Positions 4 through 62,774 of a stretch of DNA of 64,000 nt are shown one piece after another. Source of the DNA: Escherichia coli (GTDB lineage: Bacteria; Pseudomonadota; Gammaproteobacteria; Enterobacterales; Enterobacteriaceae); the NCBI RefSeq assembly GCF_016026235.1, contig NZ_CP065613.1, one strand, 5' to 3'. The number at the start of each line of letters is the position of its first letter. Within the stretch, counting starts at the first letter, position 1. The notes under the pieces are model-generated. The model worked only from the letters and a program-made list of their open reading frames with translations. It had not been told where the DNA came from and ran no database searches. Both the position numbers and the translations under genes were made by a program.

Positions 4-879
4 GTGATTTTCTTTGGCTTTGGCAATGGCGGGCAGTCGATTGGTTTTAGCAATCTCACAGAGCATGGCGGTTTCTTTGCGGGTGGCTGGAAAGGGTTCC
101 TGACCGCGCTGTGTATTGTGGTGGCGTCCTACCAGGGCGTGGAGCTGATTGGCATTACTGCCGGTGAAGCGAAGAATCCGCAGGTGACGCTGCGCAGTGC
201 CGTAGGCAAAGTGCTGTGGCGGATCCTGATTTTCTACGTAGGCGCGATTTTCGTTATCGTCACCATCTTCCCGTGGAATGAAATTGGCAGCAACGGCAGC
301 CCGTTCGTACTGACTTTTGCCAAAATCGGTATTACCGCAGCGGCGGGCATTATCAACTTTGTGGTGCTGACGGCTGCGCTCTCTGGCTGTAACAGCGGCA
401 TGTACAGTTGCGGACGTATGCTCTACGCACTGGCGAAAAACCGTCAGTTACCGGCGGCGATGGCGAAAGTTTCCCGTCACGGCGTACCAGTTGCGGGTGT
501 GGCAGTATCTATTGCTATTCTGCTAATTGGCTCATGCCTGAACTACATCATTCCCAATCCGCAGCGTGTGTTTGTCTACGTCTACAGTGCCAGCGTGCTT
601 CCGGGGATGGTGCCATGGTTTGTGATATTGATAAGCCAGCTGCGTTTTCGGCGTGCACATAAAGCGGCGATTGCCAGCCATCCGTTCCGCTCAATCCTGT
701 TCCCGTGGGCCAACTACGTAACAATGGCATTCCTGATTTGCGTTTTGATCGGCATGTACTTTAATGAAGATACGCGTATGTCGCTGTTTGTTGGCATCAT
801 CTTTATGCTGGCGGTGACGGCGATTTATAAAGTTTTTGGCCTTAATCGCCACGGGAAAGCGCATAAACTGGAGGAATAA
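4..879 (+). CDS. yifK: APC-family amino acid permease, 3' portion (gene starts upstream of window)
   Basis: ORF runs off the 5' edge; 291 aa polytopic membrane product typical of amino-acid permeases; sits immediately upstream of the argX-hisR-leuT-proM tRNA cluster as yifK does in E. coli. Confidence 0.85.
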
Positions 880-931
880 GCAGCAAAACGCACAAACCGT
901 AACCAAACGCGCAATTTATTTAAAAAGGGAC

Positions 932-960
932 TAGACAGAGGGGTGGGAAGTCCGTATTAT
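932..960 (+). promoter_or_regulatory. Candidate sigma70 promoter of the tRNA operon (TAGACA-17 bp-TATTAT)
   Basis: -35-like TAGACA at 932-937 and -10-like TATTAT at 955-960 with 17 bp spacing, about 20 bp upstream of tRNA-Arg. Confidence 0.4.
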
Positions 961-981
961 CCACCCCCGCAACGGCGCTAA

Positions 982-1058
<77 letters not shown>

Positions 1059-1115
1059 TTTAGTCCCGGCGCTTGAGCTGCGGTGGTAGTAATACCGCGT
1101 AACAAGATTTGTAGT

Positions 1116-1192
1116 GGTGGCTATAGCTCAGTTGGTAGAGCCCTGGATTGTGATTCCAGTTGTCGTGGGTTCGAATCCCATTAGCCACCCCA
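1116..1192 (+). tRNA. hisR: tRNA-His (anticodon GUG)
   Basis: GGUGGCUAUAGCUCAGUUGGUAGAGC...GGUUCGAAUCC...CCACCCCA with the extra 5' G typical of tRNA-His; anticodon loop UUGUGAU. Confidence 0.93.
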
Positions 1193-1212
1193 TTATTAGA
1201 AGTTGTGACAAT

Positions 1213-1299
1213 GCGAAGGTGGCGGAATTGGTAGACGCGCTAGCTTCAGGTGTTAGTGTCCTTACGGACGTGGGGGTTCAAGTCCCCCCCCTCGCACCA
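1213..1299 (+). tRNA. leuT: tRNA-Leu (anticodon CAG), long variable arm
   Basis: 87 nt class II tRNA GCGAAGGUGGCGGAAUUGGUAGACGCG...; anticodon loop CUUCAGGUG; GGUUCAAGUCC T-arm. Confidence 0.92.
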
Positions 1300-1341
1300 C
1301 GACTTTAAAGAATTGAACTAAAAATTCAAAAAGCAGTATTT

Positions 1342-1418
1342 CGGCGAGTAGCGCAGCTTGGTAGCGCAACTGGTTTGGGACCAGTGGGTCGGAGGTTCGA
1401 ATCCTCTCTCGCCGACCA
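1342..1418 (+). tRNA. proM: tRNA-Pro (anticodon UGG)
   Basis: CGGCGAGUAGCGCAGCUUGGUAGCGCA...UUUGGGA anticodon loop...GGUUCGAAUCC...GCCGACCA. Confidence 0.92.
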
Positions 1419-1424
1419 ATTTTG

Positions 1425-1452
1425 AACCCCGCTTCGGCGGGGTTTTTTGTTT
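1425..1452 (+). terminator. Rho-independent terminator of the tRNA operon
   Basis: GC-rich hairpin AACCCCGC-TTCG-GCGGGGTT followed by TTTTGTTTTC. Confidence 0.8.
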
Positions 1453-1564
1453 TCTGTGCATTTCGTCACCCTCCCTTCGCAATAAACGCCCGTAATAACT
1501 CATTGCCCCACGGTATGATTTCGCCCTTAACGTATTGAAGGATGACTTCAGGCAAGGAGTGACC

Positions 1565-2800
1565 ATGCTGCAACAGGTTCCAACGCGTGCTTTTCATGTG
1601 ATGGCGAAACCGAGTGGTTCCGATTGTAATCTGAACTGTGACTACTGTTTTTATCTCGAAAAACAATCCCTTTACCGCGAAAAGCCAGTCACGCATATGG
1701 ACGATGACACGCTGGAAGCGTATGTCCGTCACTATATCGCTGCCAGCGAACCGCAAAACGAAGTGGCTTTTACCTGGCAGGGCGGCGAACCAACGTTACT
1801 CGGGCTGGATTTTTACCGCCGTGCCGTAAAGTTACAGGCGAAATACGGTGCTGGCAGGAAGATAAGTAACAGCTTCCAGACTAACGGCGTGCTGCTCGAT
1901 GATAAATGGTGTGCATTTCTGGCAGAAAATCATTTTCTTGTTGGGTTATCGCTGGACGGTCCGGCTGAGATCCACAATCAATATCGCGTGACCAAAGGTG
2001 GCAGACCAACGCATAAGCTGGTGATGCGTGCCCTGACGCTGCTGCAAAAACATCATGTCGACTATAACGTGCTGGTCTGCGTCAACCGCACCAGCGCGCA
2101 GCAACCGTTGCAGGTTTATGATTTTTTGTGCGATGCGGGAGTCGAATTCATCCAGTTTATTCCGGTGGTCGAGCGCCTGGCTGATGAAACAGCTGCCAGC
2201 GATGGACTGAAACTACATGCGCCTGGTGATATTCAGGGGGAACTGACGGAATGGTCGGTGCGCCCCGATGAATTTGGTGAATTTCTGGTGGCGATATTCG
2301 ACCACTGGATCAAACGCGACGTCGGCAAGATTTTCGTGATGAATATCGAATGGGCGTTTGCCAATTTTGTCGGTGCGCCGGGTGCGGTTTGCCATCATCA
2401 GCCAACCTGTGGGCGCTCGGTGATTGTTGAGCACAACGGCGACGTTTACGCCTGCGATCACTATGTTTATCCGCAATATCGGCTGGGGAATATGCATCAG
2501 CAAACAATTGCAGAAATGATCGATTCCCCGCAACAGCAGGTGTTTGGTGAAGATAAATTTAAGCAATTACCGGCGCAGTGTCGCAGTTGTAACGTGTTAA
2601 AAGCGTGCTGGGGAGGCTGCCCGAAACACCGCTTCATGCTCGATGCCAGCGGCAAACCGGGGCTGAATTATTTGTGTGCCGGGTATCAGCGTTATTTCCG
2701 CCATCTACCGCCATATCTTAAAGCAATGGCTGATTTGCTGGCGCACGGTCGCCCGGCCAGTGACATTATGCAGGCACATTTGCTGGTGGTGAATAAGTAA
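1565..2800 (+). CDS. aslB: Anaerobic sulfatase-maturating enzyme, radical SAM (411 aa from ATG 1565; ORF track extends to 1535)
   Basis: N-terminal CxxxCxxC radical-SAM motif (CNLNCDYC) and C-terminal Cys-rich auxiliary cluster region; length and position after the tRNA operon match aslB. Confidence 0.9.
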   Translation: MLQQVPTRAFHVMAKPSGSDCNLNCDYCFYLEKQSLYREKPVTHMDDDTLEAYVRHYIAASEPQNEVAFTWQGGEPTLLGLDFYRRAVKLQAKYGAGRKISNSFQTNGVLLDDKWCAFLAENHFLVGLSLDGPAEIHNQYRVTKGGRPTHKLVMRALTLLQKHHVDYNVLVCVNRTSAQQPLQVYDFLCDAGVEFIQFIPVVERLADETAASDGLKLHAPGDIQGELTEWSVRPDEFGEFLVAIFDHWIKRDVGKIFVMNIEWAFANFVGAPGAVCHHQPTCGRSVIVEHNGDVYACDHYVYPQYRLGNMHQQTIAEMIDSPQQQVFGEDKFKQLPAQCRSCNVLKACWGGCPKHRFMLDASGKPGLNYLCAGYQRYFRHLPPYLKAMADLLAHGRPASDIMQAHLLVVNK

Positions 2801-2835
2801 AAAAGCGGCCATTTTGTGGCCGCCTGCGGTTGATT

Positions 2836-2870
<35 letters not shown>

Positions 2871-2883
2871 TGATCGTGCAAAT

Positions 2884-3045
2884 TCAATAAATTGCAGCGT
2901 TCTGTGGATACTGGTTTGGGTGATCGTATCCGGCAAAGCCTTTGCGTGCGGTGGCAGTTGACGGGGTATCTGCTGCGCTGGCCATGAGAGGAAGAGCGGC
3001 GGCGACAGCAACAACAAGAAGTTTGGGTGAAAACGAAAATTCCAT
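2884..3045 (-). pseudogene. aslA: 5' stub of a periplasmic protein gene, probably arylsulfatase aslA; rest of gene absent
   Basis: Minus-strand ATG at 3045 encodes [28 protein letters not shown]..., a classic Sec signal peptide with AXA site, then stops after 53 codons; this is where aslA is expected (convergent with aslB, before glmZ/hemY) but only ~160 bp remain. Confidence 0.45.
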
Positions 3046-3469
3046 GCAAAATGCTCCGGTTTCATGTCATCAAAATGATGACGTAATTAAGCATTGATAA
3101 TTGAGATCCCTCTCCCTGACAGGATGATTACATAAATAATAGTGACAAAAATAAATTATTTATTTATCCAGAAAATGAATTGGAAAATCAGGAGAGCGTT
3201 TTCAATCCTACCTCTGGCGCAGTTGATATGTAAGGCAGGTTTATTATATCGCGTTGATTATTGATGCTTTTTTTAGTTTTAACGGCAATTAATATATGTG
3301 TTATTAATTGAATGAATTTTATCATTCATAATAAGTATGTGTAGGATCAAGCTCAGGTTAAATATTCACTCAGGAAGTTATTACTCAGGAAGCAAAGAGG
3401 ATTACAGAATTATCTCATAACAAGTGTTAAGGGATGTTATTTCCCGATTCTCTGTGGCATAATAAACGG

Positions 3470-3676
3470 GTAGATGCTCATTCCATCTCTTATGTTCGCC
3501 TTAGTGCCTCATAAACTCCGGAATGACGCAGAGCCGTTTACGGTGCTTATCGTCCACTGACAGATGTCGCTTATGCCTCATCAGACACCATGGACACAAC
3601 GTTGAGTGAAGCACCCACTTGTTGTCATACAGACCTGTTTTAACGCCTGCTCCGTAATAAGAGCAGGCGTTTTTTT
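3470..3676 (+). ncRNA. glmZ: GlmZ (SraJ/RyiA) small regulatory RNA
   Basis: Sequence GTAGATGCTCATTCCATCTCTTATGTTCGCC...ends in hairpin AACGCCTGCTC-CGTAATAA-GAGCAGGCGTT plus T7 tract; matches my recollection of GlmZ in the aslA-hemY intergenic region; -10-like CATAAT at 3458-3463. Exact 5' end uncertain. Confidence 0.65.
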
Positions 3677-3723
3677 ATGCATCAGAAAGGTCCCGGAGGT
3701 GCTTGCCTCCGGGTGAGAAGGAA

Positions 3724-4920
3724 CTACTGTGGTGGGTTGTTCTGCAACGTTAACATCAAACCGTCGCGACGCATCGCTGCAGCTTCTTCCGGCTTGTGCA
3801 GTCTGTCCAGCGCGTCGGCAAGCCATGCGTAATCGTAGGCGTCCGGACGTTGTTTCAGCGCCGCGCGGAAGGCGAGCGATGCTTCCTGCCATTCTCCGTG
3901 CTTCATCAGTGACTGGCCCAGTGTGCTCCACAACAGCGGGCGATCGCCGACGTTTTTGATCTGCTGGCGCAGCACTTTTTCCAGCTGTTCCGGATTGTTG
4001 GTTTTCAGTCGAGGAATCGGCAGCAGTAGGCGATCGTCGTACTGGCGTTTCAGGCCATCGATGATAATTTGCTGGGCAGTATCATGATCGTCACATTCAA
4101 TAAGATGTTCCGCCATTGCCACCTGCAACGCTACCTGATGACGCGTTTTCCGGCTTTGGTTTTTCCACCAGTTACGCAAACCTTCACTACCGTTATCGGC
4201 ACGCGCCTGATCCATCAGGCCAATCCATGCCTGTTGTTCCAGCATTGCACGATGTTCTTCATCACCAACATGGGCTTTCGCCATTGATGGGATGATATCC
4301 AGCAGCGAACTCCATGCACCTGTGCGGATATACGCCTGTTCCGCCAGACGTAATACTTCCGGATGGCGTGGCGTAACTTCCAGCAGCTTATCCACGCCGT
4401 GGCGTGCAGCATGGTTTTCATTACGGGCCAGTTGCAGACGTACACGGGTGATTTCTACCGGAATGGTGTCATTGCCGGCCAGCTCTGCTGCGCGTTCCAG
4501 ATGTTGGTTGGCGCGTGCTTCATCACCACGTTGTTGCGCGGCTTCGGCAGCCAGTAGATAGTTCACCACCGGTTGTTCCGCGTGATCGGCATTTTTCGCC
4601 ATCAGCTTTTCAACTTGCTGATAATCGCCTTCCGCCAGTTTCAGCAGCGCCTGTTCGGTCTGCTTACGGGCACGGCGACGCTTACGTCCGACAAACCACC
4701 CACGGGTGTGTGCGCCTGTGCGGAAGATCCGCCGCAGTAGCCACTCAATGGCAAACAGCACTACCATCGCCAGAATCAAAATAATCGCCAGGCCCGTGAC
4801 GCTGGTTTCGATATTGTAGTTGTCAGTCTGGATCAGCACGTAACCCTGATGACCGGCAATCATCGGGCCAACCACTATCCCCGCAATCAGCAAAACAAAG
4901 AGTAATAACACTTTTAGCAT
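3724..4920 (-). CDS. hemY: HemY, inner membrane TPR-repeat protein of the heme pathway operon
   Basis: 398 aa ORF with N-terminal TM segments and TPR-like repeats; last gene of hemCDXY on minus strand. Confidence 0.9.
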   Translation of the reverse strand: MLKVLLLFVLLIAGIVVGPMIAGHQGYVLIQTDNYNIETSVTGLAIILILAMVVLFAIEWLLRRIFRTGAHTRGWFVGRKRRRARKQTEQALLKLAEGDYQQVEKLMAKNADHAEQPVVNYLLAAEAAQQRGDEARANQHLERAAELAGNDTIPVEITRVRLQLARNENHAARHGVDKLLEVTPRHPEVLRLAEQAYIRTGAWSSLLDIIPSMAKAHVGDEEHRAMLEQQAWIGLMDQARADNGSEGLRNWWKNQSRKTRHQVALQVAMAEHLIECDDHDTAQQIIIDGLKRQYDDRLLLPIPRLKTNNPEQLEKVLRQQIKNVGDRPLLWSTLGQSLMKHGEWQEASLAFRAALKQRPDAYDYAWLADALDRLHKPEEAAAMRRDGLMLTLQNNPPQ

Positions 4921-4922
4921 GG

Positions 4923-6176
4923 TTATTCTCCTTGCGGCGCGGCTGCCGGAGTATCACCTTGCGGTGCAGGTGCAGGTGCAGGTGCAGGTGCAGGTGCAGG
5001 TGCAGGTGCAGGTGCAGGTGCAGGTGCAGGTGCAGGTGCAGGTGCAGGTTTAGCTTCCGTTGTCCCCGCTGCCGGTTGTGCCAGCAGGTTACGCACGCGG
5101 GTCTGCATCAGTTTTTCCAGCATCGCCTGGCTTTGCAGGGTTTCCGGAAGATCCATCGAGATATTTTGCTGGCTTAACTGGTCCACCTCGTCGAGGAACG
5201 CTTTGGTGGTGGCATCATCAGTATCGTAGTAAGCACGTACCCAGGTGGAGACGTTCTCCAGCGCCTGGCGATAAGTCTCTTCCTGGTGACGCGGTACAGC
5301 TTGTGCTGCGACCAGCAGGCGAGAGCGAATATTTTCGCGCAGATAGATATCCTGATTTGGCGCTAACAGCGGTACGGCGGTGTCATCACGACGGCGAATC
5401 GTAATGAAGTTGTCCATAAAGTTCTGCCAGCTTTTTTGCAGATTGATACGCCATTCGCTGATGGAACTGGAAAGCTCTTCACCGTCGGAATCCATCGGCG
5501 AACCATCGCTGTCATTATCGGCCAGACGCAGGTTATCTACCTGATTTGAAAGCTGATTAAGCTTAAGGATGATGCCGTCATAATCCACCTGCGAAACTGC
5601 AGAAAGGCTGGCGATATCATCGGTAATTGCCCGACGAACGGTAATCAGACTCGGGTCATTCATATCCGCCAGGCTGGCATCTGCACTTTTCAGCAACGCT
5701 GCAGCGGTCGTGACGTCCTGATCGCTCCACAGCTTCCGTCCGGCGAGTTTCACCAGAAAATCGGCCTGAGCCAGCAGCCAGGTTTTAGCATCGCTGCCGG
5801 AAATGGTGGCGACCTTTTGTTGGACTTCATCCAACTGTTTTGCCAGCGTTTCTTGCTGACGATTCGCCTGCTTAAGCTGTGCAGCTTGTTGCTTAATAAT
5901 GCCTTCCAGCTCGGCTTTTTGGCTCTCCTGGGCTTTTTGCAATGCCGTCAGTTGGTTAGCCAGGGCATCGCTGGTGGCGGTCTGATTGACGGCCTGTTGT
6001 TTACCCCAGCCATACAAACCGACGCCCGCCGCCAGAGCAATAGCGATAGCCACCGCGCTGAGAATCAATGCGGTATTGTTCTTACTCTTTTTTTCTGTTG
6101 CGACAGGTTGTGACGTGGTGTCCACGGCCTCCCTGGTCTCTTCAACCACGGCGGAGGTTTTTTCTTGTTCCGTCAT
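4923..6176 (-). CDS. hemX: HemX, membrane protein with C-terminal (Pro-Ala)n tract
   Basis: 417 aa ORF adjacent to hemY/hemD; coiled-coil region rich in Q/A/L and terminal PAPAPA... repeat. Confidence 0.88.
4963..5046. repeat. Perfect tandem hexanucleotide repeat (GGTGCA)x14 encoding (Pro-Ala)n in hemX
   Basis: Counted directly: 14 contiguous GGTGCA units on the plus strand (TGCACC on the coding strand). Confidence 0.95.
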
Positions 6177-6197: not shown

Positions 6198-6938
6198 TTA
6201 TTGTAATGCCCGTAAAAGCGCATCGTTGTCAGCGTTATCGGCGACCTTAATGTCTTGCCAGCCCAGTTCCCGGGCGAGTTTCGCCAAACGCTCACTGACG
6301 ACCAATAGTCGACAGCGTAGTAACCAGTGCTCACGATACCATTGTGGGATCAGCGACCAGAGTTGCTGCAACATTTCACCGCTGGTAACAACGACCGTCG
6401 TCACCTCGCGGGATTGCCAGCGCATCGCTTCTTCTGCACCATCGTAATGGATTGCGCATCGTTGATAACATTCACAAAAAGTGACCTCAGCACCGCGCGC
6501 TGTCAGGGTATCCCCAATTAGCTCACGACCGCCATTGCCACGTAATATCAGCGCACGTTTGCCCGCAATATTTTGTAATTCAGGTAATTGTAGCAAGACT
6601 TCGCTGATTTCCCGATCCTGCGGGTAGAGAATCTTCTGTCCGCTTACGGTATGTAGCGCCAGTGCGGTGGTGCGTCCAATGGCGAAATAATCAGGTAGTC
6701 GGGGCCATTTACGATCTTGCTGATGCAGCTGTGATTGGGCAAAAGCAACCGCGTGTTGCGAGAGGGCAAACAGCAGATCGCTCTCCCCCAGCGCCGCCAG
6801 TTGATCAGCAAGTTGCGGTAATTGTCGACCCGGAGAAAACTCAATCAGCGGAAAATGCCAGGCCACCTGCCCCAGTGTGCGCAGACGGCTCACTAACTCT
6901 TCTCCAGCGGGAGACGGGCGGGTGACCAGGATACTCAT
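6198..6938 (-). CDS. hemD: Uroporphyrinogen-III synthase
   Basis: 246 aa ORF; 4 bp overlap with hemC stop region; conserved position in hemCDXY. Confidence 0.9.
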
Positions 6939-7876
6939 GTCGGGGCGTCTCCGTTATAGACTTCAGCGAGGATCTCGCGCGCGCCGTTATTCAGTAGCTC
7001 TTCTGCCAGCGAAATCCCCATTTGTTCGGCATCTTGCGGCGCACCGCGGCGTTCACCGCGAATAATCTGCGAACCGTCCGGCGCGCCGACCAGCGCACGC
7101 AGCCAGATTTCACCATCAATAAGCTCGGCGTAGCTACCAATTGGCACCTGACATCCGCCTTCGAGACGGGTATTCATGGCGCGTTCTGCGGTAACGCGCA
7201 GTGCAGTTTCGTGGTGATTCAGCGCGGCAAGCAGCTCGCGAGTGCGTGCATCATCAAGGCGGCATTCAATACCCACCGCACCTTGCCCTACCGCCGGAAG
7301 AGAAATCTCGGGTGGCAACGCGGCGCGAATACGTGACTCCAGACCTAAACGTTTTAGTCCGGCTACGGCAAGAATGATGGCATCGTATTCGCCGTTATCT
7401 AGTTTGCTCAGGCGAGTGCCGACGTTGCCGCGCAGGGAGCGGATAATCAGATCCGGGCGGCGTTCAGCCAGTTGGCACTGGCGACGTAAACTGGACGTCC
7501 CGACGATACTGCCTGCCGGTAACGCATCCAGACTGTCATAATTATTGGACACAAAGGCATCGCGAGGATCTTCACGCTCACAAATAGTGACCAACCCCAG
7601 ACCTTGCGGGAATTCAACCGGCACATCTTTCATTGAATGTACGGCGATATCGGCGCGATTCTCCAGGAGCGCGACTTCCAGCTCTTTTACAAATAAGCCT
7701 TTTCCGCCTACTTTCGCCAGCGGCGTATCAAGAATCACATCGCCGCGCGTCACCATCGGTACCAGTTCAACCACCAGGCCCGGATGGCTCGCCATCAACT
7801 TGTCTTTGACATAGTGTGCCTGCCAGAGTGCAAGTGGGCTTTGGCGTGTGGCAATTCTTAAAACATTGTCTAACAT
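6935..7876 (-). CDS. hemC: Porphobilinogen deaminase / hydroxymethylbilane synthase (313 aa from ATG 7876; ORF track extends to 7897)
   Basis: Product begins [20 protein letters not shown]... as HemC does; first gene of hemCDXY, divergent from cyaA. Confidence 0.92.
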
Positions 7877-8262
7877 GCTTGTTACCGTCATTATCATCCG
7901 TGGTCCATCCTAACATCCTTGCCAGAGTGATGTCAGTGTTGTGGTGAAACGTAGACGCTTGCGCAAACCGTAAAATGAGGTCTGGCAGTGGATCCTGACA
8001 GGCGTTTCACGCCGTCGTAATAAGGAATTTACAGAGAATAAACGGTGCTACACTTGTATGTAGCGCATCTTTCTTTACGGTCAATCAGCAAGGTGTTAAA
8101 TTGATCACGTTTTAGACCATTTTTTCGTCGTGAAACTAAAAAAACCAGGCGCGAAAAGTGGTAACGGTTACCTTTGACATACGAAATATCCCGAATGCCG
8201 CGTGTTACCGTTGATGTTGGCGGAATCACAGTCATGACGGGTAGCAAATCAGGCGATACGTC

Positions 8263-41957: not shown

Positions 41958-44200
<2,243 letters not shown>

Positions 44201-57542: not shown

Positions 57543-57674
57543 TTTATCAGACAATCTGTGTGGGCACTCGAAGATACGGATTCTTAACGTCGCAAGACGA
57601 AAAATGAATACCAAGTCTCAAGAGTGAACACGTAATTCATTACGAAGTTTAATTCTTTGAGCATCAAACTTTTA

Positions 57675-59216
<1,542 letters not shown>

Positions 59217-59283
59217 CTTAAAGAAGCGTTCTTTGTAGTGCTCACACAGATTGTCTGATGAAAATGAGCAGTAAAACCTCTAC

Positions 59284-59360
<77 letters not shown>

Positions 59361-59402
59361 AATTTGCACGGCAAATTTGAAGAGGTTTTAACTACATGTT
59401 AT

Positions 59403-59478
59403 GGGGCTATAGCTCAGCTGGGAGAGCGCCTGCTTTGCACGCAGGAGGTCTGCGGTTCGATCCCGCATAGCTCCACCA
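59403..59478 (+). tRNA. alaT: tRNA-Ala (anticodon UGC), rrn spacer tRNA
   Basis: GGGGCTATAGCTCAGCTGGGAGAGCGCCTGCTTTGCACGCAGGAGG...AGCTCCACCA. Confidence 0.95.
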
Positions 59479-59661
59479 TCTCTGTAGTGATTAAATAAAA
59501 AATACTTCAGAGTGTACCTGCAAAGGTTCACTGCGAAGTTTTGCTCTTTAAAAATCTGGATCAAGCTGAAAATTGAAACACTGAACAACGAAAGTTGTTC
59601 GTGAGTCTCTCAAATTTTCGCAACACGATGATGAATCGAAAGAAACATCTTCGGGTTGTGA

Positions 59662-62562
<2,901 letters not shown>

Positions 62563-62654
62563 ACAACGCCGAAGATGTTTTGGCGGATGAGAGAAGATTT
62601 TCAGCCTGATACAGATTAAATCAGAACGCAGAAGCGGTCTGATAAAACAGAATT

Positions 62655-62774
62655 TGCCTGGCGGCCTTAGCGCGGTGGTCCCACCTGACCCCATGCCGAA
62701 CTCAGAAGTGAAACGCCGTAGCGCCGATGGTAGTGTGGGGTCTCCCCATGCGAGAGTAGGGAACTGCCAGGCAT
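62655..62774 (+). rRNA. rrfA: 5S ribosomal RNA
   Basis: TGCCTGGCGGCCTTAGCGCGGTGGTCCCACCTGACCCCATGCCGAACTCAG...GGAACTGCCAGGCAT; 120 nt. Confidence 0.96.

What the first reader, a model, noticed from the sequence alone, without database searches (positions are those of the whole stretch)
3470..3676. GlmZ sRNA retained intact next to the aslA deletion
The ~207 nt segment ending in a strong intrinsic terminator (stem AACGCCTGCTC/GAGCAGGCGTT plus T7) matches my memory of GlmZ, the sRNA that activates glmS translation, and lies in the expected aslA-hemY intergenic position on the plus strand. The ORF track shows only spurious ORFs here, so this functional element is invisible to ORF-based annotation. 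It also implies the aslA deletion stopped short of the sRNA.
Basis: partly seen in the sequence, partly recalled or inferred. Interest (0 to 1): 0.3.

Follow-up and report, generated by a model that had tools for sequence, protein, structure and literature searches.

The report
Ordinary E. coli glmZ small RNA gene

Summary
Window 3470..3676 (+) is glmZ. Rfam GlmZ_SraJ (RF00083) matches exactly these coordinates over the whole model (218.4 bits; gathering score 60; E = 3e-56). The 207 nt are 207/207 identical to E. coli K-12 MG1655 glmZ, and 5424 of 5426 complete E. coli genomes hold a copy at 99% identity or more. It lies between the aslA remnant and the convergent hemYXDC genes.

The terminator is as described: stem 3642-3652 / 3661-3671, T7 at 3670-3676. 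The K-12 sigma-70 promoter region (-40..-1) is retained, with one difference at -1 (G here, A in K-12). The 26-nt single-stranded region pairs with the glmS 5' UTR at -41..-21. glmS is outside the window, so that site was read from other E. coli genomes.

The aslA deletion is real. 1579 bp of K-12 sequence are replaced by one G at 2906, leaving 46 aslA codons at 2907..3045 (-). The same junction is found in 1728 of 5426 complete genomes, so it is an old lineage polymorphism. It ends 563 bp upstream of glmZ +1, and the whole 424-bp aslA-glmZ spacer is intact.

Verdict: observation confirmed, interpretation supported, already known, low interest.

The parts
3470..3676 (+). glmZ, primary transcript of 207 nt (small RNA GlmZ, also called SraJ or RyiA)
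   Evidence: Rfam RF00083, 218.4 bits, model 1-214/214. 207/207 identical to MG1655 glmZ. 5424 of 5426 E. coli genomes at 99% identity or more. The 207-nt length of the primary transcript is from PMC4152352.
3434..3463 (+). glmZ sigma-70 promoter: -10 hexamer CATAAT at 3458-3463, preceded by TG at 3455-3456 (extended -10-like); probable -35 ATGTTA at 3434-3439 (3 of 6 matches, 18-bp spacer)
   Evidence: Window 3430..3468 (-40..-2) is identical to K-12. PMC3045617 shows experimentally that -40..+32 of K-12 suffices for promoter activity and that mutating the -35 or the -10 motif abolishes it. The hexamer coordinates are my own reading of the sequence. The simple promoter scan did not report this site, because its -35 is too weak for the scan's rule.
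3469..3469 (+). Single-base difference from K-12 at position -1 of glmZ (G here, A in K-12)
   Evidence: Alignment. The identical 65-nt stretch 3425-3489 occurs in 1617 complete genomes, so this is a lineage polymorphism. Its effect was not tested.
3470..3534 (+). Stem-loop 1 (SL1), GlmZ nt 1-65
   Evidence: Rfam consensus structure mapped onto the sequence. The MFE fold recovers the core helix, nt 7-15 with 51-60. All 5 of the 48 consensus pairs that are non-canonical lie in the upper part of SL1 (4 in the apex, 1 at the top of the main helix), where the MFE fold uses another register.
3542..3615 (+). [quoted passage not shown]
   Evidence: The Rfam consensus pairs 73-79/140-146, 83-87/122-126 and 94-97/110-113 are all canonical. 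The role of SL2 is from PMC4737144. That role is inferred here from sequence identity.
3616..3641 (+). 26-nt single-stranded region (SSR), GlmZ nt 147-172, CACUUGUUGUCAUACAGACCUGUUUU: glmS pairing site, Hfq site and RNase E cleavage site (about nt 151-155, window 3620-3624)
   Evidence: The length and position agree with 'the 26 nt long SSR of GlmZ' in PMC4737144. Nt 150-157 and 163-169 pair with glmS -41..-21, dG -19.2 kcal/mol; 4 of 500 shuffles reach that value. The cleavage positions are from the literature and were not tested here.
3642..3676 (+). Stem-loop 3, the intrinsic terminator (11-bp stem, 8-nt loop), and the U7 tail that also contributes to Hfq binding
   Evidence: Terminator scan; the hairpin is present in both the MFE and the centroid structure; 11 of 11 pairs are canonical; the role of the oligo(U) tail is from PMC4737144.
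3046..3469 (.). Complete 424-bp aslA-glmZ intergenic region, retained
   Evidence: Two differences from K-12 across the spacer, at window 3269 and at 3469, the -1 change. The length matches the -424 fragment used in PMC3045617.
2907..3045 (-). aslA remnant: start codon plus 46 codons (signal-peptide region), then out-of-frame PQNAAIY* across the junction
   Evidence: Translation and comparison with K-12 AslA (551 aa). RefSeq annotates the same remnant as an 'arylsulfatase' pseudogene, incomplete and missing its C-terminus.
2905..2907 (.). Deletion junction: 1579 bp of K-12 sequence (62 bp of aslB-aslA spacer plus 1517 nt of aslA) replaced by one G at 2906; no microhomology
   Evidence: The junction-spanning 100-mer is found at 80% coverage or more in 1728 of 5426 genomes.
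3724..4920 (-). hemY, convergent with glmZ; a 47-bp gap (3677-3723) contains a second hairpin, CCCGGAGG...CCTCCGGG
   Evidence: ORF list; RefSeq annotation of the 100%-identical locus gives the same HemY protein WP_000921791.1 as in K-12; sequence read directly.

Best explanation
Window 3470..3676 (+) is the gene for GlmZ, the Hfq-dependent base-pairing small RNA that activates translation of glmS mRNA (glucosamine-6-phosphate synthase) in Enterobacteriaceae. It is transcribed from a constitutive sigma-70 promoter directly upstream (-10 hexamer at 3458-3463) and ends at its own intrinsic terminator (3642-3676). The 207-nt RNA has four modules: SL1, SL2, a 26-nt single-stranded region (SSR) and the terminator SL3. 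With Hfq bound to the SSR and the U-tail, SSR nt 150-157 and 163-169 pair with the glmS 5' UTR at about -41..-21. That is the left arm of a hairpin which otherwise hides the Shine-Dalgarno sequence, so pairing opens it and allows translation. When glucosamine-6-phosphate is plentiful, the adaptor protein RapZ binds SL2 and presents GlmZ to RNase E, which cuts in the SSR at about nt 151-155 and removes the pairing site. The decoy sRNA GlmY counteracts this by sequestering RapZ. Shown here: the identity, coordinates, structure, synteny, promoter retention and complementarity to glmS. Inferred from 100% identity to the K-12 gene, on which the experiments were done: the mechanism itself. The neighbouring aslA deletion is a separate, old, widespread event that does not touch glmZ or its promoter.
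For: Rfam GlmZ_SraJ hit over the full model, 218.4 bits against a gathering score of 60, E = 3e-56, and the best member of clan CL00011, so it outscores GlmY. 207/207 identity to MG1655 glmZ. Copies at 99% identity or more in 5424 of 5426 complete E. coli genomes. Synteny thrP - argX/hisR/leuT/proM - aslB - aslA' - glmZ - hemY/X/D/C - cyaA. Promoter region -40..-2 identical to the K-12 promoter dissected in PMC3045617. 43 of 48 Rfam consensus pairs are canonical, and all pairs of SL2 and SL3 are. MFE -60.8 kcal/mol, z = -3.33 against dinucleotide shuffles. The 26-nt SSR matches PMC4737144. The GlmZ 149-170 / glmS -41..-21 duplex has dG -19.2, against a shuffle mean of -11.4 (sd 2.7), with 4 of 500 shuffles reaching it. 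The glmS target is identical in K-12 and in a genome with the same aslA deletion, and is at 99% identity or more in 4948 of the 5424 genomes that hold it. The mechanism comes from PMC4152352, PMC4737144 and PMC3045617.
Against: Nothing contradicts it, but there are caveats. glmS, rapZ, glmY, hfq and rne all lie outside the window, so their presence in this particular genome is assumed from species-wide conservation. Position -1 differs from K-12 (G for A), with untested effect on initiation. The simple promoter scan did not flag the promoter because its -35 is weak. The single-sequence MFE fold does not form the basal SL2 helix, and 5 consensus pairs in the upper part of SL1 are non-canonical. 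Expression was not measured.
Confidence: 0.97

Rival explanations
1. The segment is a silent relic. The sequence is glmZ, but the nearby aslA deletion or the -1 change has disabled its transcription in this lineage.
For: A 1579-bp deletion lies upstream. One base at -1 differs from K-12. The consensus promoter scan reports no promoter immediately upstream.
Against: The deletion ends 563 bp upstream of +1, while K-12 promoter activity needs only -40..+32 (PMC3045617). -40..-2 is identical to K-12. A decaying gene would not stay 207/207 identical while its flanks differ: the 894-bp alignment around it has 9 mismatches, all outside glmZ. About 1600-1700 genomes carry the same promoter variant and the same junction with glmZ unchanged.
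Confidence: 0.02
2. The segment is the homologous decoy sRNA GlmY, or a GlmY/GlmZ-like paralogue, which would sequester RapZ instead of pairing with glmS.
For: GlmY and GlmZ belong to the same Rfam clan (CL00011) and have similar SL1/SL2 architecture (PMC4737144).
Against: Within the clan only the best-scoring family is kept, and that is GlmZ_SraJ. The SSR is 26 nt and complementary to glmS, whereas the GlmY SSR is 12 nt with no complementarity. The synteny is hemCDXY, not the purL/mltF - glrK neighbourhood of glmY. The sequence is identical to K-12 glmZ.
Confidence: 0.005
3. The match is chance: an ordinary intergenic terminator, perhaps serving hemY bidirectionally, with no sRNA attached.
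For: The terminator lies 47 bp from the hemY stop codon in a convergent arrangement.
Against: E = 3e-56 over the full 214-position model, not only the terminator. On the - strand the hairpin is followed by TTAAAACAGG, which is not a T-run.
Confidence: 0.005

Closest known systems
E. coli K-12 glmZ (b4456; SraJ/RyiA), Rfam RF00083 GlmZ_SraJ
   Same: 207/207 nt identical; same strand and neighbours (aslA upstream, hemYXDC convergent downstream); same promoter from -40 to -2; same terminator; same 26-nt glmS-pairing single-stranded region.
   Different: Position -1 is G instead of A. The upstream neighbour aslA is reduced to 46 codons by a 1579-bp deletion. The MG1655 RefSeq feature is drawn as 172 nt and stops before the terminator hairpin, whereas the primary transcript is 207 nt.
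GlmY (Rfam RF00128, same clan CL00011)
   Same: Homologous SL1/SL2/terminator architecture and RapZ binding (PMC4737144).
   Different: [quoted passage not shown] The element here has none of these features.
glmZ of Salmonella and Yersinia (promoter groups II and I of PMC3045617)
   Same: Same sRNA family and the same hemCDXY synteny.
   Different: Those genes have sigma-54 promoters with three GlrR sites and IHF sites. E. coli glmZ, including this copy, has a single constitutive sigma-70 promoter.

Membership tests
GlmZ_SraJ (Rfam RF00083) | Covariance-model score above the curated gathering score, over the full model | tested here: met
   218.4 bits against 60; model 1-214/214; E = 3.4e-56; best of clan CL00011.
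GlmZ_SraJ (Rfam RF00083) | Sequence identity to the experimentally characterised K-12 glmZ | tested here: met
   207/207 identical, counted from MG1655 3986432.
GlmZ_SraJ (Rfam RF00083) | Conserved synteny: convergent with the hemCDXY cluster | tested here: met
   hemY 3724..4920 (-), hemX 4923..6176 (-), hemD 6198..6938 (-), hemC 6935..7897 (-). RefSeq annotation of the matching locus agrees. Synteny rule from PMC3045617.
GlmZ_SraJ (Rfam RF00083) | Architecture SL1 - SL2 - 26-nt single-stranded region - terminator SL3 with oligo(U) tail | tested here: met
   Consensus structure mapped onto the sequence: 43 of 48 pairs canonical, with all pairs of SL2 and SL3 canonical; SSR = nt 147-172 (26 nt); U7 tail. 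Caveat: the single-sequence MFE fold lacks the basal SL2 helix.
GlmZ_SraJ (Rfam RF00083) | Complementarity of the single-stranded region to the glmS 5' UTR upstream of the Shine-Dalgarno sequence | tested here: met
   GlmZ 149-170 with glmS -41..-21, two helices of 8 and 7 pairs, dG -19.2; 4 of 500 shuffles reach it. Caveat: glmS is not in the window. The target was taken from K-12 and from strain VG12A2, which has the same aslA deletion, and it is conserved in 5424 of 5426 genomes.
GlmZ_SraJ (Rfam RF00083) | E. coli-type single sigma-70 promoter within -40..+1 | tested here: met
   -40..-2 identical to K-12, with only -1 differing. Function of that region shown in K-12 by PMC3045617. Activity in this strain was not measured.
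GlmZ_SraJ (Rfam RF00083) | RapZ binding, RapZ-dependent RNase E cleavage at about nt 151-155, Hfq dependence, activation of glmS translation | not testable with these tools
   Biochemical properties established for the identical K-12 RNA (PMC4737144, PMC4152352). Inferred here from sequence identity.

The most novel reading that the evidence does not exclude
About a third of sequenced E. coli share three features: the -1 A-to-G change at the glmZ start site, loss of the aslA gene body, and an orphaned aslA promoter region 424 bp upstream. Together these might slightly shift GlmZ initiation or level, and so the set point of glucosamine-6-phosphate homeostasis, in that lineage. Nothing here supports this. 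It is only not excluded, because expression was not measured.
Probability: 0.04. Interest if true: 0.2.

Novelty: already known. Interest (0 to 1): 0.04.

Why it matters
It matters only as an annotation point. GlmZ is a central regulator of cell-envelope precursor synthesis, yet ORF-based calls do not show it, and the PGAP RefSeq records listed for this locus show no annotated feature under the match. A scan that recognises it avoids treating the aslA-hemY spacer as empty or mysterious. The aslA loss next to it is a known presence/absence polymorphism: aslA is scored as a variable virulence-associated gene in PMC11565901 and PMC11879602. Here it is shown to be a single shared deletion event with one junction. 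No new biology follows from this.

Tried and rejected
(1) Permissive Rfam search of 2800..3800 for any further RNA. It gave only sub-threshold REP-type hits at 2803..2866 (naRNA4, 44 bits against 59.5) and 2876..2897 (ES036, 30 bits against 37.6), with nothing else near glmZ.

(2) Consensus promoter scan of 2900..3800. It reported 3 sites against 2.5 expected by chance, and none is the glmZ promoter. The scan is uninformative here because the real promoter has a weak -35.

(3) Unrestricted RNAduplex of full GlmZ against the full glmS leader gave a meaningless end-to-end duplex. I redid it with the SSR against -60..-6 only.

(4) Looked for microhomology at the deletion junction and found none. 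One non-templated or mutated G sits at the join.

(5) Asked whether strain VG12A2, which is 100% identical over window 900-5200, is the source genome. It is not, or not entirely. It has two extra hypothetical genes beyond cyaY, where the window has the K-12 order cyaY - dapF - yigA - xerC, and its hemX is 407 aa against 417 aa here. It was therefore used only as a proxy for glmS.

(6) Literature search for a described aslA deletion tied to a phylogroup. It found only presence/absence scoring of aslA as a virulence factor, and no description of this junction.

(7) Considered and rejected three rivals: GlmY, a dead relic, and a chance terminator (see the rival explanations).

Full report
**Observation.** I read window 3000..4200 and scanned all 64 kb against Rfam 15 at gathering thresholds. 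The match covers model positions 1-214 of 214, at 218.4 bits (gathering score 60) and E = 3.4e-56. A permissive search of 2800..3800 gave the same hit and nothing else in or next to the segment. The terminator is as described: 5' arm AACGCCTGCTC at 3642-3652, 3' arm GAGCAGGCGTT at 3661-3671, an 8-nt loop, and 11 pairs of which 7 are G-C. The run of seven T is at 3670-3676, so it overlaps the last two stem bases. That is a trivial correction.

**Identity.** The curated MG1655 record lists ncRNA glmZ (b4456) starting at 3986432. The 207 nt from that start are identical to window 3470..3676, with no differences. Megablast of the 207 nt finds a copy at 99% identity or more in 5424 of 5426 complete E. 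coli genomes, one per genome at the median. In the PGAP-annotated records listed, no feature lies under the match. The MG1655 feature is drawn as 172 nt and stops just before the terminator hairpin. The literature gives 207 nt for the primary transcript and about 151 nt for the processed form (PMC4152352).

**Context.** The order in the window is:
- thrP
- tRNA-Arg, tRNA-His, tRNA-Leu, tRNA-Pro (982..1415)
- aslB
- the aslA remnant
- glmZ
- hemY (3724..4920, -), hemX (4923..6176, -), hemD (6198..6938, -), hemC (6935..7897, -)
- cyaA

It is the conserved synteny reported for glmZ: clustered with the oppositely oriented hemCDXY genes, with a variable upstream side (PMC3045617).

**The aslA deletion.** Pairwise BLAST against K-12 splits the region in two. 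Window 400..2905 aligns to the thrP-aslB side, and window 2907..4977 aligns from inside aslA onwards. Missing are 1579 bp of K-12 sequence (L003 2791..4369). That is 62 bp of the aslB-aslA spacer plus 1517 of the 1656 nt of aslA.
- A single G at 2906 sits at the join, with no microhomology.
- What remains of aslA is its start codon and 46 codons at 2907..3045 (-), with one amino-acid difference from K-12. The frame then reads PQNAAIY* across the junction. RefSeq annotates the same remnant as an incomplete arylsulfatase pseudogene.
- A 100-nt probe spanning the junction is found at 80% coverage or more in 1728 of 5426 complete genomes. K-12, B and O157:H7 match only the 61-nt aslA side of the probe at that place.
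- The deletion is therefore one old event shared by roughly a third of sequenced E. coli, not a peculiarity of this strain. Variable presence of aslA is already recorded in virulence-gene surveys (PMC11565901, PMC11879602).
- Its right edge is 563 bp upstream of glmZ +1. The entire 424-bp aslA-glmZ intergenic region (3046..3469) is retained, with two differences from K-12.

**Promoter.** PMC3045617 shows several things for K-12. glmZ has a single constitutive sigma-70 promoter. GlrR and sigma-54 play no part. Sequence upstream of -40 is dispensable. Mutating the -35 or the -10 motif abolishes expression. Window 3430..3468 (-40..-2) is identical to K-12. I read the -10 as CATAAT at 3458-3463, preceded by TG at 3455-3456, and the -35 as ATGTTA at 3434-3439 (three matches to the consensus, as the paper states, with an 18-bp spacer). 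These hexamer coordinates are my inference. The one difference is G for A at -1 (window 3469). The identical 65-nt stretch 3425-3489 occurs in 1617 genomes, so it is a lineage variant. Its effect is untested. The generic promoter scan missed this promoter because of the weak -35, and it found no more sites than chance would give.

**Structure and mechanism.** I mapped the Rfam consensus structure onto the sequence:
- SL1 is nt 1-65.
- SL2 is nt 73-146.
- The single-stranded region (SSR) is nt 147-172, 26 nt, which is the length given in PMC4737144.
- SL3 is nt 173-202, followed by the U-tail to nt 207.

Forty-three of the 48 consensus pairs are canonical. The five exceptions all lie in the upper part of SL1, four in the apex and one at the top of the main helix, where the single-sequence fold uses another register. 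The MFE is -60.8 kcal/mol (z = -3.33; 1 of 200 shuffles folds as well). It recovers the SL1 core, the upper part of SL2 and SL3, but not the basal SL2 helix.

glmS is not in the window. In K-12 it lies about 73 kb away, on the side opposite to the one the window covers. I therefore took the glmU-glmS spacer from MG1655 and from VG12A2, a strain that is 100% identical to window 900-5200 and carries the same deletion. The two leaders differ only at -151 and -147. GlmZ nt 150-157 and 163-169 pair with glmS -41..-21 in two helices of 8 and 7 pairs, with dG -19.2 kcal/mol. Shuffled SSRs give a mean of -11.4 (sd 2.7), and 4 of 500 reach the observed value. The 90 nt from -60 to +30 of glmS are present in 5424 of 5426 genomes, at 99% identity or more in 4948 of them.

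The rest of the mechanism is taken from experiments on the identical K-12 RNA and is inferred here. It comprises Hfq binding to the SSR and U-tail, RapZ recognition of SL2, RNase E cleavage at about nt 151-155 inside the pairing site, GlmY acting as a RapZ decoy, and GlcN6P feedback (PMC4737144, PMC4152352).

**Rivals.**
- GlmY is excluded by the Rfam clan competition, the 26-nt complementary SSR, the synteny and the identity to glmZ.
- A silenced relic is very unlikely. The deletion ends far outside the -40 requirement, and glmZ has no substitutions while the surrounding alignment has nine mismatches in 894 bp, all outside glmZ.
- A chance terminator is excluded by the full-length covariance-model score.

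**Verdict.** This is the ordinary, already-known E. coli glmZ gene in its ordinary place. The adjacent aslA deletion is real, common and irrelevant to glmZ integrity. Novelty: already known. Interest: very low.

Noticed in passing
window 4963..5049 (inside hemX, 4923..6176, - strand): Perfect hexanucleotide array (GGTGCA) x 14.5 near the 3' end of hemX. The product is 417 aa here, against 393 aa in K-12 and 407 aa in strain VG12A2, so this is an in-frame repeat whose copy number varies between strains.
   Followed up: partly
window 1565..2800 (+), the aslB CDS, within ORF 1535..2800: The anaerobic sulfatase maturase gene aslB is intact and annotated as functional in matching genomes, although its neighbour and presumed substrate gene aslA is reduced to 46 codons. 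It is an orphaned maturase in about a third of E. coli genomes.
   Followed up: no
window 2803..2897: A REP/BIME-type palindromic element lies directly left of the aslA deletion junction, seen as sub-threshold Rfam hits naRNA4 at 2803..2866 (44 bits against 59.5) and ES036 at 2876..2897. In K-12 the deleted segment itself starts with another REP-like unit (AGGCTGGATAAGATGCGTCAGCATCGCATC), so the left breakpoint falls between REP units.
   Followed up: partly
window 3363..3392: Imperfect 15-bp direct repeat (TATTCACTCAGGAAGT x 1.9) at -107..-78 relative to glmZ, identical in K-12. It lies upstream of the -40 limit needed for the glmZ promoter, so it may belong to aslA control or be a protein-binding site.
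   Followed up: no
window 3677..3723: The 47-bp gap between the convergent glmZ and hemY genes holds a second G+C-rich hairpin (CCCGGAGGTGCTTGCCTCCGGG, 3693..3714) with no T-run on either strand. It may be the 3' end structure of the hemY transcript. This gap also holds three of the nine differences from K-12 in the 894-bp alignment around glmZ.
   Followed up: no
window 42312..42563 (+): Strong full-length Rfam hit to 'Erse small RNA' (RF02757): 317.4 bits against a gathering score of 138, ending in ...AAAUGA. It may lie inside or at the end of a coding region. Not examined.
   Followed up: no
window 57674..62772 (+): Complete rrn operon: 16S, two spacer tRNAs at 59284..59357 and 59403..59475, a StyR-44 hit at 59546..59654, 23S and 5S. 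This is consistent with the rrnA region of E. coli.
   Followed up: no
MG1655 NC_000913.3 3986432..3986603 (locus L003 4933..5104): The curated RefSeq glmZ feature is 172 nt and stops at the end of the single-stranded region, omitting the terminator hairpin. The primary transcript is 207 nt according to the literature and to the Rfam model.
   Followed up: yes
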